From the IMG/VR virus record IMGVR_UViG_3300015179_000022: a stretch of 6,015 nt of DNA; one strand, 5' to 3'. Made by a program: the position numbers and the translations under genes. The notes beneath the pieces were generated by a model that was given only the letters and a program-made list of their open reading frames with translations, made no database searches and was not told the DNA's origin. Positions 943-5,896 of the stretch are shown here, one piece after another; position 1 is the stretch's first letter; each line of letters begins with the position of its first letter. This DNA is from a virus (lineage: Duplodnaviria; Heunggongvirae; Uroviricota; Caudoviricetes).

Positions 943-2025
943 ATGAAAAAATTAACAGTGGCAATTTCTGCTGTAGCTGCATCAGTACTGATGGCGATGT
1001 CTGCTCAGGCAGCTGAAATTTATAATAAAGACAGTAACAAGCTGGATCTGTACGGGAAAGTTAATGCTAAGCACTACTTCTCCTCTAATGATGCAGATGA
1101 TGGTGATACTACTTATGCCCGTCTTGGCTTCAAAGGTGAAACCCAAATCAACGATCAACTGACTGGTTTCGGTCAGTGGGAATATGAATTCAAAGGCAAC
1201 CGCGCTGAATCTCAAGGTTCCTCCAAAGACAAAACCCGTCTTGCATTTGCAGGCCTGAAATTCGGTGACTACGGCTCAATCGATTACGGCCGTAACTACG
1301 GTGTAGCATACGACATCGGTGCGTGGACTGACGTTCTGCCAGAATTCGGTGGCGATACCTGGACCCAAACAGATGTGTTCATGACTGGTCGCACCACTGG
1401 TGTTGCAACCTATCGTAACAACGACTTCTTTGGTCTGGTCGATGGCCTGAACTTTGCTGCTCAGTATCAGGGTAAAAATGACCGCACTGACGTAACTGAA
1501 GCCAATGGTGATGGTTTCGGTTTCTCCACTACTTATGAGTATGAAGGATTCGGCGTGGGTGCAACCTATGCTAAATCAGATCGCACTGACGGTCAGGTCG
1601 CCTATGGTAAGAGCAAATTCAATGCCTCCGGCAAAAATGCGGAAGTATGGGCTGCAGGCCTGAAATATGATGCGAACAATATCTATCTGGCTACCACATA
1701 TTCTGAAACTCAGAATATGACCGTTTTTGGTAATAACCATATTGCAAACAAAGCACAAAACTTTGAAGCAGTAGCACAATATCAGTTTGACTTCGGTCTG
1801 CGACCATCTGTTGCTTACCTTCAGTCAAAAGGTAAAGACCTTGGTGTTCATGGTGACCGAGACTTAGTCAAGTATGTCGATGTCGGTGCTACTTACTACT
1901 TTAATAAAAACATGTCCACTTTTGTTGATTACAAAATCAACTTAATTGACGATAGTAAGTTTACCAAAACAGCTGGTATTGATACCGACGACATCGTCGC
2001 TGTAGGTCTGGTGTATCAGTTCTAA
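943..2025 (+). CDS. nmpC: Outer-membrane general porin of the OmpC/OmpF/PhoE family, prophage-encoded NmpC/Lc type, 360 aa, apparently intact
   Basis: N-terminus [46 protein letters not shown] (signal peptide plus porin start), internal porin motifs and C-terminal ...VAVGLVYQF with terminal Phe. Convergent with quuD. Confidence 0.93.
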
Positions 2026-3632: not shown

Positions 3633-4087
3633 TACGCCTCCTGCTTGTCGCGCAGCAGCTGGAACTCGCAGCTCTGCGGAATAGTCAGGTGGCAGCCAAT
3701 ATTCATCGCCTAGGCTTCAACCTTACACAGGAAGACATACATCTCTCCGGCATCAAGATCGGAGGTATGGCGTAACGACTGGATAGTGGTGATTTCACCG
3801 GTTACGACATCAACCAGTTCTTTGGTTTCATAACCGAGGTATGTGTGTTTGAGAGCTTCTTTTACCCATGCTGCGGTAGCGAACGATTTCCCCCTGCTGA
3901 TAAGGTATTCACTGATTTCGCTGTACCACATGTGGCTGAGTGCATTCTGGGAAAGACTGCGTTTCTCACGCCACGGTTTAAGCACCATGCGAAAGCATTT
4001 TCCGTCCTCCAGATAAGGCTGGATCTGCTGGCCGATAGCGGTGAAGTTGCCGCGATGTAATTTGATGCCATCTTGTGGTAGGTTCAC
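3632..4087 (-). pseudogene. ybcN: ybcN (NinB-family recombination protein) with an in-frame amber codon at 3710..3712; translatable N-terminal fragment 3710..4087 is 125 aa
   Basis: GTG start at 4085..4087 with GGAGGTGA Shine-Dalgarno. 125 codons ([15 protein letters not shown]...LCKVEA) then TAG. The same frame continues AMNIGCHLTIPQSCEFQLLRDKQEA to a TAA overlapping the ninE ATG, giving 125+1+25 = 151 codons, the recalled YbcN length. The recalled family member has Trp (TGG) at the stop position. Confidence 0.8.
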
Positions 4088-4185
4088 GCTTCACCTCCGC
4101 AGAGGTCAAACGTTGGATGCAAAAAATCGCAGGTGCATTTCTGCATCTGTGAAGGGAGAAGAGAGTTTGAATTGTATGTGCGCAT
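4084..4185 (-). CDS. ylcH: Small protein YlcH, 33 aa
   Basis: ATG at 4183..4185. Translation [36 protein letters not shown] stop overlaps the ybcN GTG start (GTGA). Matches the recalled 33-aa DLP12 YlcH. Confidence 0.62.
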
Positions 4186-4281
4186 AAACGTCCCCGTTTA
4201 GCGCAGAAGTCACCGGAGTTGTTCAAGCTCCAATGGCATGATTATGGCTGGTTGATTATTGGAAATCAAATGTGCTGAAAA

Positions 4282-4791
4282 TTAGTCTGCCAAGTCTTCC
4301 TCAGTCGCAACTGGGTAATTCCAAATATCAAAAAAAGCTATAGCCTCCTGCCATTTGCTCCATAAGTTATCAAGTACTTGTGTAGGTTCCGTACTTTTAA
4401 AAACAGAATCAGCCGCATCACCGTTATGAACTTCCTCGTACAGTTCCATTATTAGCAGATTAACAAAGTACTGTTTCAACATTAATGCCTGATTACCTTC
4501 TTTCTGCTGGCTATCCTGCTTGATGATCTCCATCGCCCGTACTAGGCACCTGATGATATCCGCTGCATCATTAACGCTCCATTCAGATCCGCGCTTATCT
4601 TTAGCTGATGAATTGGCTCTCTCAGCGCAAGCCTTTAAAGACTCATAAAGGTAAACTCTATTTTGTAGCTGCAGCGCTTTTTTTGACGTGTACCAACTTG
4701 CAAGCGCCGACCCCGCTGCGGCTAATGTGCCAAACGCAGAAATGCCTGCTGCTATTGCACTTAAGTCGGCACTGTCAAAGTTCCACATCAT
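4282..4791 (-). CDS. Hypothetical protein, 169 aa: N-terminal Ala/Gly-rich hydrophobic segment (about residues 9-34, likely single transmembrane helix) followed by an acidic soluble domain; no family recognised
   Basis: Uninterrupted ORF with tandem ATGs at 4786..4791 preceded by AAGGTG. Hydrophobic stretch DLSAIAAGISAFGTLAAAGSALASWY followed by basic TSKKALQLQNR. Visibly more AT-rich than the flanking nin genes. Bounded upstream by its own terminator (4967..5006). Confidence 0.7.
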   Translation of the reverse strand: MMWNFDSADLSAIAAGISAFGTLAAAGSALASWYTSKKALQLQNRVYLYESLKACAERANSSAKDKRGSEWSVNDAADIIRCLVRAMEIIKQDSQQKEGNQALMLKQYFVNLLIMELYEEVHNGDAADSVFKSTEPTQVLDNLWSKWQEAIAFFDIWNYPVATEEDLAD

Positions 4792-4966
4792 CGTTACACC
4801 TTATATAAACACCCCTCAGTAATATCCAATAAGGTATGTGAACAATCAATATAATTTATATCCGTATCGGCACATAGCGATTTTAATGCTACTGATAATG
4901 GTATCTTTTAGATTATATCGTCCAGTTCCAGTACCCGTATTTTAGGAATGGACTCGCACATTACCC

Positions 4967-5006
4967 CAAAAAATGCCAGCACTTCCGTCATCGCAGAATG
5001 CTGGCA
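4967..5006 (-). terminator. Rho-independent terminator (minus strand) downstream of the Roi-like gene
   Basis: 8-bp stem TGCCAGCA(4974..4981)/TGCTGGCA(4999..5006); on the minus strand followed by TTTTTTGGGG (complement of 4965..4973). Confidence 0.5.
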
Positions 5007-5025
5007 GTATTTCTAACTAGTGACT

Positions 5026-5634
5026 TTATTGCAACAGATTCTGACGGAAATATGGTAACACTCGACTCCACTTATCATCCTGCCACGGTTGGAATTTTAC
5101 ATGCGCCGTTTCTCTGGCAAGGATTTCTCGCGCCCTGTTGAGTATCCGAGGATATTCTTGTTCGATTGAAGTGAATCTACCTGCTTCGCGATGCTCTGCG
5201 ACCTGAAGAAGGGGCGTAACGTTCTGGCAGGCGGTTAACATCGTATCACTTGCTCGCCATAACCAGGCGAGTGTGCAAAGTTCGTTATCAGTGAATTGTT
5301 TTGTGATTGGGGATTGTTGAACTTCTCGATCGAGAATATCCAGAACCCAGCGGCGGAATTCTTTGGCCACAGGAGTACGAGCAAACATGGCGATCAAATG
5401 GGCTCCGCGAAGGCTAAATACTCGAGACTCCTGCATTCCACGAGGGGTGGTCACTTTGACCACCCTTGTCATCATATCTGTGAATTCATCTGAGTGCCGA
5501 GAGTAAATGCGCTGAACTGCTTTATCGTCCGCATATTCCAGTGCTAAACCAACTTCAGTGGCAGTAAGCCAAATTCTGTTATTGTGGCAAATCGGGGTAA
5601 ACGTCGTTTTGTGGAATGCTAATTGAGTAGTCAT
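5026..5634 (-). CDS. Bro-N domain DNA-binding protein, Roi/antirepressor-like, 202 aa
   Basis: ATG at 5632..5634 with GAGGTGA Shine-Dalgarno. N-terminal half (FHKTTFTPICHNNRIWLTATEVGLALEYADDKAVQRIYSRHSDEFT...FRRWVLDILDREV) fits the Bro-N pattern and resembles Roi-type proteins found in lambdoid nin regions. C-terminal half not recognised. Confidence 0.75.
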   Translation of the reverse strand: MTTQLAFHKTTFTPICHNNRIWLTATEVGLALEYADDKAVQRIYSRHSDEFTDMMTRVVKVTTPRGMQESRVFSLRGAHLIAMFARTPVAKEFRRWVLDILDREVQQSPITKQFTDNELCTLAWLWRASDTMLTACQNVTPLLQVAEHREAGRFTSIEQEYPRILNRAREILARETAHVKFQPWQDDKWSRVLPYFRQNLLQ

Positions 5635-5658: not shown

Positions 5659-5691
5659 TCACCACCAACGACGCCAATCGACTGGTGGTGA
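5659..5691. repeat. Perfect 9-bp inverted repeat TCACCACCA / TGGTGGTGA with 15-bp spacer, in the leader of the Roi-like gene
   Basis: Arms at 5659..5667 and 5683..5691, read directly from the sequence; located about 25-60 nt upstream of the Roi-like start on the transcribed strand. Confidence 0.5.
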
Positions 5692-5790
5692 ACTGTGTAA
5701 GGTTGGCGTAACCGGCTACTCAAACCCGGCGCTTCCGAAGAAGCCCTCACACAGCCCACCATAATTTGGGCATAGCCGTGCTTAGCGCAC

Positions 5791-5811
5791 AAAAAAACCG
5801 CTTAACGCGGT
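5791..5811 (-). terminator. Rho-independent terminator (minus strand), possibly tR2-like early-operon terminator
   Basis: Stem ACCGC/GCGGT (5797..5801 / 5807..5811), loop TTAAC; on the minus strand followed by a run of 7 T (complement of 5791..5797). Confidence 0.5.
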
Positions 5812-5896
5812 ATGCGTTGAGTAGTATCCCGGGACGCCAATCCCGTGTGCCGATTTTGCGGCAACGCACAGAATATAGCGCCGGATAAATCTTGTC

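What the first reader, a model, noticed from the sequence alone, without database searches (positions are those of the whole stretch)
4282..4791. Unrecognised 169-aa membrane-anchored protein inserted as a self-contained unit between the Roi-like gene and the nin operon
This is the one gene in the window I cannot place in any family. It has a single N-terminal Ala/Gly-rich hydrophobic helix with small-xxx-small spacing (AAGISAFGTLAAAGSALA), basic residues after it, and an acidic roughly 135-aa C-terminal domain. It is more AT-rich than its neighbours, has its own strong RBS, and is separated from the upstream gene by a terminator (4967..5006) and 234 bp of AT-rich spacer. That is the signature of a moron. 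Small bitopic membrane proteins carried in prophage early regions are often superinfection-exclusion or abortive-infection effectors, so a phage-defence or host-modulating role is a reasonable hypothesis.
Basis: partly seen in the sequence, partly recalled or inferred. Interest (0 to 1): 0.68.

Follow-up and report, generated by a model that had tools for sequence, protein, structure and literature searches.

The report
Uncharacterised membrane-anchored prophage cargo gene
This is a real, conserved but unstudied small membrane-protein gene that lambdoid prophages of E. coli carry as a swappable cassette in the slot where sibling prophages carry known anti-phage defence genes, so it is a good but unproven defence candidate.

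Summary
Window 4282-4791 (- strand) encodes a 169-aa protein (168 aa if the second ATG is used). It has one N-terminal Ala/Gly/Ser-rich hydrophobic helix, basic residues after it, and an acidic all-helical C-terminal domain. A hairpin terminator and a 234-bp AT-rich spacer lie upstream.

The gene is real. Synonymous sites are saturated between lineages, with dN/dS about 0.1-0.3. It belongs to PHROG phrog_1779 (function unknown). It has no Pfam, NCBIfam, PADLOC, PDB or fold match.

The family is small: 35 representatives among 1.84 billion proteins, all seen so far in lambdoid prophage early regions of Enterobacterales.

A promoter-like element (TTGNNN-17 nt-GATATT) travels with the gene and occurs nowhere else in the loci scanned. 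Many lineages also carry an intrinsic terminator right after the gene.

In sibling E. coli prophages the same junctions hold BstA, a HEPN pair, a PRTase-like/NADAR pair or ybcLM. PD-lambda-1 lies nearby in phage PhiR26_1. The "moron" reading is therefore well supported.

A defence or exclusion role is the best guess (about 0.4) but rests on guilt by association. An early lytic accessory or counter-defence role is a serious rival, because distant homologs sit inside early-left operons. It is a new member of a known kind, of moderate interest.

The parts
4968..5007 (-). Intrinsic terminator-like hairpin (stem CUGCCAGCA/UGCUGGCA, then U6). It ends the upstream Ant/Roi-like gene module.
   Evidence: Read from the sequence. 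The fold gives -21.8 kcal/mol, z = -2.2. Homology with the O157 sibling (L064) ends inside it at 4994.
4850..4967 (-). AT-rich spacer specific to the E. coli lineage (GC about 0.38). No credible ORF.
   Evidence: This stretch is absent in the other lineages, where the promoter-like element follows the upstream gene directly.
4821..4849 (-). Promoter-like element: -35 TTGATT (4849-4844), a 17-nt spacer, and -10 GATATT (4826-4821). The predicted start site is near 4814.
   Evidence: Conserved with exact spacing in 15 of 17 distinct upstream sequences, which is 7 of 9 divergent lineages. It occurs once per locus, and only upstream of this gene, in about 512 kb scanned. It matches 8 of 12 consensus positions, so the simple scan does not call it. 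Its activity has not been tested.
4809..4837 (-). Inverted repeat straddling the -10 (ATACCTT 4837-4831 and GGGGTGT 4815-4809; ATACCCT/AGGGTAT in relatives). It could be an operator or an RNA hairpin; this is unresolved.
   Evidence: 87.5% of cells pair, against 33-57% when the partner is slid. Only one pair shows a change on both sides.
4797..4802 (-). Shine-Dalgarno sequence AAGGTG, 5 nt before ATG 4791 and 8 nt before ATG 4788.
   Evidence: GAGG-type sequences sit at the same place in relatives.
4282..4791 (-). ORF169 coding sequence (169 aa; alternative start at 4788 gives 168 aa). It is a member of phrog_1779.
4696..4758 (-). Residues 12-32: weakly hydrophobic Ala/Ser/Gly-rich helix, the predicted single transmembrane anchor (N-terminus out, C-terminus in). 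One narrow stripe is bulky (positions 20, 23, 27, 30) and the rest is a broad face of small residues.
   Evidence: The acidic N-flank and basic C-flank hold for most of the 34 relatives. The periodicity peak is at 100 degrees.
4312..4656 (-). Residues 46-160: acidic all-helical bundle, predicted to be cytoplasmic. No conserved catalytic-type residues.
   Evidence: AlphaFold2 model m917331a6539c, pLDDT 83.4, with 92-98 over residues 41-90. The nearly invariant positions are only Q43, L52, N60, A86, F109, L113 and W147. No significant fold match.
4285..4305 (-). Residues 163-169: conserved acidic C-terminal peptide T-E-E-D-L-A-D (family pattern [DE]-x-[DE]-L-x-[DES] within the last 12 residues).
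   Evidence: T163, E165, D166, L167 and D169 are invariant in the close subfamily. The pattern is present in 21 of 34 family members.
4271..4993 (-). Exchangeable cargo cassette (spacer, promoter and ORF169), bounded by the points where homology to sibling prophages is lost.
   Evidence: Right-flank homology begins at 4269-4276 in all 7 siblings compared. Left-flank homology ends at 4994 (L064) or 5033 (L065).
4084..4270 (-). Downstream boundary, not part of the cassette: the conserved ninB/ybcN leader. It holds a promoter-like TTGATT-17-CATAAT, three hairpins, and the annotated 33-aa 'ylcH'.

Best explanation
ORF169 is a genuine accessory (moron-type) gene of lambdoid prophages. It moves as a small cassette with its own promoter-like element. 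In the window it sits in the variable slot between the Ant/Roi-like module and the ninB/ybcN leader. In sibling E. coli prophages that slot carries anti-phage defence genes.

Its product is a small bitopic inner-membrane protein. A short acidic, Trp-containing N-terminus faces the periplasm. One Ala/Ser/Gly-rich transmembrane helix follows; its broad small-residue face suggests tight packing against other helices, either copies of itself or a host membrane protein. A long stalk then leads to an acidic, non-enzymatic helical bundle in the cytoplasm, which ends in a conserved acidic peptide (TxEDLxD).

The most likely function is protection of the lysogen against other phages, with the protein made from the prophage and acting at the cytoplasmic face of the inner membrane. 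It could do this in two ways. It could bind a component of incoming phage or of the host entry machinery and block an early step (superinfection exclusion). Or it could sense a phage protein through the cytoplasmic domain and disturb the membrane through the oligomerising helix (abortive infection).

Shown: the gene is real, the cassette architecture, the hotspot location, the helix and charge pattern, and the helical non-catalytic domain.

Inferred: membrane insertion and topology, oligomerisation, expression in the lysogen, and the defence function itself.
For: Real gene under purifying selection.

Cassette:
- The promoter-like TTGNNN-17-GATATT is conserved across lineages with saturated synonymous sites and is unique to this gene.
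- A terminator lies upstream in the window.
- Canonical terminators lie within about 60 nt downstream of the stop in L055, L056, L058, L059 and L060 and in L011, L013/L015 and Erwinia phage 49.
- The breakpoints are shared with sibling prophages.

Hotspot: the same junctions hold BstA (PADLOC E = 3.6e-121), a HEPN/PDC-M28A pair, a PRTase_III-A-like plus NADAR/PDC-M42C pair, or ybcK-ybcL-ybcM. PD-Lambda-1 (E = 2e-198) lies in the same P-to-nin region of PhiR26_1. BstA is an experimentally validated prophage abortive-infection protein (PMC8585504).

Membrane anchor and topology:
- The position and composition of the helix are conserved.
- Most of the 34 relatives have a net-negative N-flank and a net-positive C-flank.
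- The helix shows alpha-helical periodicity of small versus bulky residues.
- The 288-aa relative P0042 has what look like three extra hydrophobic segments in front of the family helix. By the positive-inside rule this would keep the same topology (sequence; my own reading).

The domain has no conserved catalytic residues and no enzyme-like fold match.

Intact copies persist in decayed prophages:
- The window itself has a nonsense codon in ybcN.
- The O104:H4 copy sits beside pseudogenes.
- Homologs persist in minimal prophage remnants.
Against: - No homology to any known defence or exclusion protein: PADLOC gave none at E <= 10 and Pfam gave none.
- No expression or phenotype data exist, and no literature was found.
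- The transmembrane helix of the window copy is marginal (dG about +2.7 kcal/mol).
- The promoter-like hexamers match only 8 of 12 consensus positions. An inverted repeat overlaps them, so the conserved block could be a regulatory site rather than a constitutive promoter.
- Distant homologs lie inside early-left operons. One overlaps the preceding gene by 4 nt, which implies expression with delayed-early lytic genes.
- The gene is co-directional with the pR operon, so lytic read-through expression is certain to occur as well.
- The slot also holds non-defence cargo (ybcL-ybcM, emrE).
Confidence: 0.4

Rival explanations
1. Early lytic-cycle accessory protein. It would be made with the delayed-early genes (from pR or pL by antitermination, plus its own regulated promoter) and tethered to the membrane. 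There it would bind and neutralise a host or defence component, acting as a counter-defence or host-takeover factor. This would be analogous in logic to lambda Ren, which sits in the same P-to-nin interval.
For: - The gene is always co-directional with early transcription.
- Distant homologs sit in early-left regions between N or the recombination genes and xis/int. One overlaps the upstream DNA_pol3_theta-like gene by 4 nt, and another lies 47 nt after one.
- In L009, L007 and L056 there is no terminator between the upstream gene and the ORF.
- An inverted repeat over the -10 suggests the promoter is regulated rather than constitutive.
- An acidic, non-enzymatic binding domain suits an inhibitor.
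Against: - The dedicated, conserved promoter-like element and the flanking terminators are not needed for an operon-embedded early gene.
- The gene shows presence/absence polymorphism at a slot otherwise filled by lysogen-protecting genes.
- It is retained in minimal prophage remnants that can no longer grow lytically.
Confidence: 0.3
2. Lysogenic-conversion factor unrelated to phage defence. It would be a small membrane protein that changes host physiology (envelope stress, transport, division, colonisation) for the benefit of the lysogen.
For: - It has the same moron architecture.
- The same prophages carry other conversion genes, namely the porin between Q and the holin, and bor.
- The slot also holds ybcL-ybcM and emrE, which are not defence genes.
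Against: - The cargo sampled in this slot is enriched for defence families.
- No similarity to any known conversion factor.
- The family is restricted to prophage early regions.
Confidence: 0.15
3. Releasable (SAR-like) or pore-forming membrane protein that takes part in lysis timing or in membrane depolarisation of the carrier phage's own host cell.
For: - The helix is 47-74% A/G/S/T, with marginal insertion energy in many members. This composition resembles signal-anchor-release (SAR) domains (the comparison rests on my own knowledge of SAR endolysins and pinholins).
- The face of small residues is typical of tightly packed helix bundles.
Against: - The gene is not in or near the lysis cassette.
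- The charge distribution is the opposite of SAR endolysins (acidic N-flank, basic C-flank).
- There is no muralytic domain, and no match to holin PHROGs or Pfam holin families.
- It is expressed from the early region.
Confidence: 0.08
4. The hydrophobic N-terminus is not a membrane anchor, so the protein is soluble. A more extreme version is that the ORF is a non-functional remnant.
For: The window copy scores only Kyte-Doolittle 1.59 and dG +2.7 kcal/mol. AlphaFold2 confidence is low for residues 1-30.
Against: - The helix is conserved in position, and many relatives are clearly hydrophobic, with dG below 0.
- The flank charges are consistent, and interfacial Trp/Tyr residues occur at positions 3 and 10.
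- Purifying selection acts on the protein.
- About 40 of the 42 full-length viral-contig copies are intact.
Confidence: 0.05

Closest known systems
PHROG family phrog_1779 (unknown function)
   Same: Full-length profile match: E = 1.2e-102, residues 1-169 of 169. All 34 relatives tested also match it.
   Different: The family carries no annotation. Membership names the protein but explains nothing.
BstA, a prophage-encoded abortive-infection protein (Owen et al. 2021, PMC8585504)
   Same: It occupies the same junctions (Ant-like gene to ylcH/ybcN leader) in a sibling E. coli prophage. It is a single-gene prophage cargo.
   Different: No sequence similarity. BstA is about 300 aa and is not matched by ORF169 in PADLOC. 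According to the paper it localises to sites of phage DNA replication, whereas ORF169 is predicted to be membrane-anchored.
Lambdoid 'morons' that encode small inner-membrane exclusion proteins, for example HK97 gp15 (Cumby et al. 2012; recalled from my own knowledge)
   Same: An autonomously transcribed insert in a lambdoid genome that encodes a small membrane protein. It shows presence/absence polymorphism between otherwise collinear phages.
   Different: No homology was tested or found. HK97 gp15 lies in the tail-gene region, and its mechanism acts on DNA entry. Function and expression in the lysogen are unknown for ORF169.
Classical superinfection-exclusion proteins: P22 SieA, P22/lambda SieB, T4 Imm
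   Same: Prophage- or phage-encoded inner-membrane proteins that act on superinfecting phage.
   Different: No Pfam match, including to any exclusion-protein family. The size and the single-helix architecture differ. The resemblance is one of concept only.
Signal-anchor-release (SAR) domains of phage endolysins and pinholins
   Same: An N-terminal, weakly hydrophobic helix rich in Ala, Gly and Ser.
   Different: The flank charges are opposite, which predicts a cytoplasmic C-terminal domain. There is no muralytic domain, and the gene is not in the lysis cassette.
phi29 p16.7 (an early, membrane-anchored organiser of phage DNA replication; recalled from my own knowledge)
   Same: An early-region phage gene that encodes an N-terminal membrane anchor plus a helical cytoplasmic domain.
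   Different: The p16.7 domain binds DNA. The ORF169 domain is strongly acidic (pI 4.5, net charge -10), so direct DNA binding is unlikely.

Membership tests
phrog_1779 | Full-length match to the family profile | tested here: met
   E = 1.2e-102, residues 1-169 against profile positions 1-169. 34 of 34 relatives match.
Moron (autonomous accessory transcription unit in a phage genome) | Present or absent between genes that are adjacent or collinear in related phages | tested here: met
   Seven sibling loci share the right flank from window 4269-4276 and carry different cargo. The leader is in 2971 of 5426 E. coli genomes, the ORF in 180-207.
Moron (autonomous accessory transcription unit in a phage genome) | Own promoter | tested here: inconclusive
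   TTGNNN-17-GATATT is conserved at -56 to -61 in 7 of 9 divergent lineages and is unique to this gene. It matches only 8 of 12 consensus positions, an inverted repeat overlaps it, and its activity is untested.
Moron (autonomous accessory transcription unit in a phage genome) | Own terminator downstream | tested here: inconclusive
   Canonical terminators follow the gene in eight other loci. The window copy runs straight into the ninB leader; the nearest terminator-like hairpin is at 4145-4128.
Moron (autonomous accessory transcription unit in a phage genome) | Base composition differs from the neighbours | tested here: met
   ORF GC 0.441 and spacer GC 0.380, against 0.473 and 0.489 for the flanking genes. 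The difference is modest.
Moron (autonomous accessory transcription unit in a phage genome) | Expressed from the repressed prophage | not testable with these tools
   No transcriptome data were available and no literature was found.
Known anti-phage defence systems (PADLOC-DB 2.0) | Match to a defence-protein profile | tested here: not met
   0 families at E <= 10.
Anti-phage defence or superinfection exclusion (functional class) | Located among defence genes or in a defence hotspot | tested here: met
   BstA, a HEPN/PDC-M28A pair and a PRTase_III-A-like plus PDC-M42C pair occupy the same slot in sibling prophages. PD-Lambda-1 lies in the same P-to-nin region of PhiR26_1.
Anti-phage defence or superinfection exclusion (functional class) | Reduces infection by some phage | not testable with these tools
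   Needs plaque or efficiency-of-plating assays.
SAR (signal-anchor-release) domain proteins | N-terminal weakly hydrophobic Gly/Ala/Ser-rich helix | tested here: met
   74% A/G/S/T and dG +2.7 kcal/mol in the window copy; 47-74% across the family.
SAR (signal-anchor-release) domain proteins | Basic N-terminus and an exported catalytic domain, encoded in the lysis cassette | tested here: not met
   The N-flank is acidic and the C-flank basic. There is no enzyme domain. The gene lies in the early region.
HEPN domain (weak Foldseek neighbours HepT, 7bxo, 5yep) | Significant fold match and a conserved R-x(4-6)-H motif | tested here: not met
   Best E-values are 0.33-0.59 with TM-scores 0.21-0.33. 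No conserved Arg/His pair appears in the family alignment.

The most novel reading that the evidence does not exclude
ORF169 is the founding member of a new single-protein, membrane-anchored anti-phage system. It would be a promoter-gene-terminator cassette that hops between the early-right (pre-ninB) and early-left hotspots of lambdoid prophages. Its acidic cytoplasmic bundle and C-terminal TxEDLxD peptide would recognise a component of the invading phage. Its Ala/Ser/Gly-rich, SAR-like helix would convert that recognition into a membrane event, either exclusion at the entry site or depolarisation.
Probability: 0.3. Interest if true: 0.65.

Novelty: new member of a known kind. Interest (0 to 1): 0.47.

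Why it matters
The gene is present in about 3% of complete E. coli genomes, including the O104:H4 2011 outbreak strain, and in plaque-forming lambdoid phages (PhiR26_1, PhiR5_1). It has no annotation anywhere.

It lies at precisely the junctions where sibling prophages carry BstA and other defence cargo. That makes it one of the better-founded candidates for an undescribed prophage-encoded defence or counter-defence protein.

It is cheap to test: the native cassette is about 740 bp, and the carrier phages grow on K-12 and E. coli C.

The work also delimits a defence-cargo hotspot in DLP12-like and lambdoid prophages, running from the Ant/Roi-like module or P/ren to the ylcH/ybcN leader. That hotspot could be mined systematically.

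Tried and rejected
1. Sequence families. Pfam, NCBIfam and PADLOC scans of the protein gave nothing. A Pfam scan of all 34 relatives gave only scattered chance hits above E = 0.003.

2. Solved structures by sequence. phmmer with the protein and hmmsearch with the family profile found nothing better than E = 0.026; the top hits were designed helical proteins.

3. Fold searches.
- Foldseek against BFVD gave a best E of 0.04.
- Foldseek against PDB with the better model gave a best E of 0.13.
- The weak HepT/HEPN neighbours were rejected, because there is no R-x(4-6)-H motif and TM-scores are at most 0.33.
- The AFDB library was not available.

4. Rfam found nothing in or next to the ORF. Its hits (C4, isrK) belong to the upstream Ant module.

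5. A CII-type activator site (TTGC-N6-TTGC) and a LexA box were considered for the promoter region, by eye, on the alignments. Both were rejected because the second half-sites do not match.

6. RNA hairpin versus DNA operator for the inverted repeat over the -10. Pairing is real, but covariation is too thin to decide.

7. A tandem paralogue in L013 (a second 171-aa ORF) was rejected: BLASTP E = 22.

8. Literature searches by phage name, protein accession, PHROG id and UniProt id found nothing on this protein. The source paper of the PhiR phage panel could not be identified.

9. Small ORFs in the 234-bp spacer and the overlapping + strand ORFs were rejected. All are short and none is supported by conservation.
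Full report
**What is in the window**

The window is the early-right and late-regulatory region of a DLP12-like lambdoid prophage of E. coli, with the genes on the - strand. In order of transcription:
- isrK and C4 antisense RNA elements (5863-5681).
- An Ant/Roi-like gene with Bro-N and P22AR_C domains (5634-5026).
- A hairpin terminator (about 5007-4968) and a 234-bp AT-rich spacer.
- ORF169 (4791-4282).
- A conserved non-coding leader that overlaps the annotated 33-aa 'ylcH'.
- ybcN (NinB/Orf family), ninE, ybcO, rusA, ylcG and Q.
- A porin gene on the + strand and the holin.

The region is 100% identical over 4100-5100 to E. coli EF7-18-58, where the ORF is WP_000990013.1, 'hypothetical protein'.

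- The ORF, the hydrophobic stretch, the basic residues after it, the acidic C-terminal domain (pI 4.5, net charge -10), the AAGGTG ribosome-binding site, the terminator and the spacer are all at the stated places.
- The AT-richness is real but modest: GC 0.441 against 0.473 and 0.489 for the neighbours.
- The true start may be the second ATG (4788). Several lineages have ATA at the first position, and PhiR5_1 is annotated as 168 aa.
- The ORF is not a chance reading frame. Between lineages the synonymous sites are saturated (pS 0.65-0.90) while non-synonymous change stays low. dN/dS is 0.09-0.31 wherever it can be estimated.

**Family**

- The protein matches PHROG phrog_1779 (function unknown) over its full length, and so do all 34 relatives tested.
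- Nothing matches in Pfam, NCBIfam or PADLOC.
- The family is small. It has 15 clusters at 90% identity among 5.8 billion proteins, and 35 representatives at 50% identity among 1.84 billion proteins in an exhaustive profile search.
- Named members are from Escherichia, E. albertii, Scandinavium and Pantoea.
- Of 50,697 isolated phage genomes only three carry it: PhiR26_1, PhiR5_1 (both plaque-forming on K-12 or E. coli C) and Erwinia phage vB_EhrS_49.
- In complete E. coli genomes it occurs in 180-207 of 5426, including O104:H4 2011C-3493.
- A 46%-identical allele (WP_000017329.1) occupies the same position in strain G1/2.

**The protein**

- *Hydrophobic helix.* All members share one N-terminal hydrophobic helix of about 20 residues, and nothing else in the protein is hydrophobic. 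The helix is unusual in being 47-74% Ala/Gly/Ser/Thr. In the window copy it is only marginal for insertion (Kyte-Doolittle 1.59, summed Hessa dG +2.7 kcal/mol), but relatives range down to -1.2.
- *Topology.* The N-flank is net negative and the C-flank net positive in most members, and Trp/Tyr residues sit at positions 3 and 10. By the positive-inside rule the short N-terminus faces the periplasm and the C-terminal domain the cytoplasm. The 288-aa relative P0042 has what look like three further hydrophobic segments in front, which would keep this topology (sequence; my own reading).
- *Packing face.* Within the helix, positions 21, 24, 25, 26, 28, 29 and 32 are at least 88% small residues. Positions 20, 23, 27 and 30 are bulky. 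The periodicity peak is sharp at 100 degrees. A narrow lipid-facing stripe and a broad small-residue face point to tight helix-helix packing, either self-association or docking on a host membrane protein. That step is inference.
- *No catalytic signature.* The nearly invariant positions are Q43, L52, N60, A86, F109, L113 and W147. No catalytic-type constellation is conserved. I therefore read the domain as a binding module.
- *C-terminal peptide.* Its most distinctive feature is the acidic C-terminal peptide. T163, E165, D166, L167 and D169 are invariant in the close subfamily, and a [DE]x[DE]Lx[DES] pattern within the last 12 residues is present in 21 of 34 members.

**The transcription unit**

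- *Promoter-like element.* Upstream of the ORF, 15 of 17 distinct sequences (7 of 9 clearly divergent lineages, with proteins down to 50% identity) keep TTG(A/C)NN, exactly 17 variable nucleotides, then GATATT(A), at -56 to -61 from the ATG. In the window this is 4849-4821. The pattern TTG-N20-GATATTA occurs once per locus, always there, and nowhere else in about 512 kb scanned on both strands. Because neutral sites are saturated between these lineages, this conservation implies function. A similar TTGTTG-17/18-(T)GATATT precedes a 24%-identical homolog in a different genomic position (L016).
- *Caveat on the promoter.* The hexamers match only 8 of 12 consensus positions, so the simple scan does not report them. 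An inverted repeat (ATACCCT...AGGGTAT; ATACCTT...GGGGTGT in the window) straddles the -10. It pairs in 87.5% of cells, against 33-57% for slid controls, but shows almost no covariation. I cannot say whether it is an operator or an RNA hairpin.
- *Terminators downstream.* Canonical intrinsic terminators follow the stop codon within about 60 nt in L055, L056, L058, L059 and L060 and in L011, L013/L015 and Erwinia phage 49. The window copy has none of its own. Its stop is 12 nt from the -35-like box of the ninB leader.

**The slot**

- *Conserved position.* In the close subfamily the gene always lies immediately upstream of the first nin gene (NinB, YbcN or DUF1367). Its upstream neighbour varies: Ant-like, DUF551 or hypothetical proteins.
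- *Breakpoints.* The ninB leader is present in 2971 of 5426 E. coli genomes. BLAST of the window against seven sibling loci puts the right breakpoint at 4269-4276 in all of them. The left breakpoint is at 4994 or 5033 where the Ant-like gene is shared.
- *Alternative cargo between those junctions.*
  - A 309-aa protein that is BstA (PADLOC E = 3.6e-121).
  - A HEPN protein (PDC-M28A) with a partner.
  - Two hypotheticals, one with a glycine-zipper match.
  - ybcK-ybcL-ybcM in K-12 DLP12.
  - emrE-ybcK.
- *Cargo in the wider P-to-nin interval.* A PRTase_III-A-like protein with a NADAR/PDC-M42C protein, and PD-Lambda-1 in PhiR26_1.
- *Significance.* BstA is an experimentally validated prophage abortive-infection protein (PMC8585504). 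ORF169 with its promoter is therefore an exchangeable cassette in a hotspot that is rich in defence cargo, although the hotspot also holds other cargo.

**What argues for caution**

- The distant homologs (18-29% identity; Pantoea, Erwinia phage 49) lie in the early-left region, between N or the recombination genes and xis/int. They are co-directional with early transcription.
- Two of them follow a DNA_pol3_theta-like gene: one overlaps it by 4 nt and the other lies 47 nt downstream. Those copies must be expressed with the delayed-early lytic genes.
- The window copy is likewise co-directional with pR, so antiterminated transcription will read through it.
- The family could therefore equally be an early accessory function, for example a membrane-tethered inhibitor of a host or defence component. 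Lambda Ren, in the same interval, is a precedent in logic (my own knowledge).
- Against this rival, the gene persists intact in decayed prophages. The window's own ybcN carries a TGG-to-TAG nonsense codon at 3711. The O104:H4 copy is flanked by pseudogenes. Homologs also survive in minimal remnants next to host genes.

**Verdict**

- The 'moron' interpretation is well supported.
- The 'defence or host-modulating' interpretation is strengthened by the BstA-slot finding but remains guilt by association.
- My best single explanation is a prophage-expressed, membrane-anchored exclusion or abortive-infection protein acting at the cytoplasmic face of the inner membrane (confidence about 0.4).
- The main rival is an early lytic accessory or counter-defence protein (about 0.3).
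- Other lysogenic conversion (0.15), a SAR-like or lysis role (0.08) and a soluble or non-functional product (0.05) follow.
- In kind it is a new, uncharacterised member of a familiar class: small membrane proteins carried as prophage cargo.
- Interest is moderate. A specialist would not be surprised, but the candidate is well delimited, common in E. coli and cheap to test.

Noticed in passing
window 4084-4270 (- strand), overlapping the annotated 33-aa 'ylcH' (4185-4084): A conserved non-coding leader lies upstream of ybcN/ninB. It is present in 2971 of 5426 complete E. coli genomes, including K-12 DLP12. On the - strand it holds:
- an inverted repeat TTGAT..ATCAA;
- a promoter-like TTGATT (4269-4264), 17 nt, CATAAT (4246-4241);
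- hairpin 1 (4235-4211), with a conserved loop CUUGAACAA and compensatory changes in 5 of 9 stem pairs;
- hairpin 2 (4204-4180), in two fully covarying alleles (UAAACG/CGUUUA and AUUUAA/UUAAAU);
- a terminator-like hairpin at 4145-4128.
There is no Rfam family for it. It could be an attenuator, a put-like antitermination RNA or a small RNA. Indels between lineages make 'ylcH' doubtful as a protein.
   Followed up: partly
window 5681-5766 and 5791-5878 (- strand): A C4 antisense RNA (RF01695, 74.8 bits) and isrK with c4-a1b1 target elements (RF01394, 58.7 bits; RF03163) lie directly upstream of the Ant/Roi-like Bro-N/P22AR_C gene. That gene therefore looks like a P1 immI-type, antisense-controlled antirepressor module that ends at its own terminator.
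   Followed up: partly
window 3710-3712 (- strand codon; base 3711): ybcN carries a TGG-to-TAG nonsense mutation (W126*) relative to the 151-aa allele WP_001372486.1. The recombination-mediator gene next to the intact ORF169 is therefore truncated in this prophage.
   Followed up: yes
L065 3701-4630 (E. coli strain 100248), the slot equivalent to window 4271-5032: A gene annotated only as 'hypothetical protein' (WP_000068668.1) is a full-length BstA abortive-infection homolog (PADLOC E = 3.6e-121). It sits between the Ant-like gene and ylcH/ybcN rather than downstream of cI, which is where BstA is usually described.
   Followed up: partly
[not shown]
   Followed up: no
window 943-2025 (+ strand): A 360-aa OmpC/NmpC-type porin gene with a signal peptide sits on the opposite strand between Q and the holin, flanked by very AT-rich DNA (GC 0.29-0.33). 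It is a lysogenic-conversion gene. It is intact here, but IS5-interrupted in the K-12 copy examined.
   Followed up: no
L011 8762-9004, L016 6160-6309, L017 and L018: Distant phrog_1779 homologs in Pantoea-type prophages are preceded by a DNA_pol3_theta (HolE/Hot-like) gene. In one case the two overlap by 4 nt. Whether this pairing is functional is unknown.
   Followed up: no
P0042 (288 aa, from the representative library): One family member carries an N-terminal extension of about 137 aa with what look like three further hydrophobic segments in front of the family helix. It is a natural fusion, consistent with a cytoplasmic C-terminal domain.
   Followed up: no
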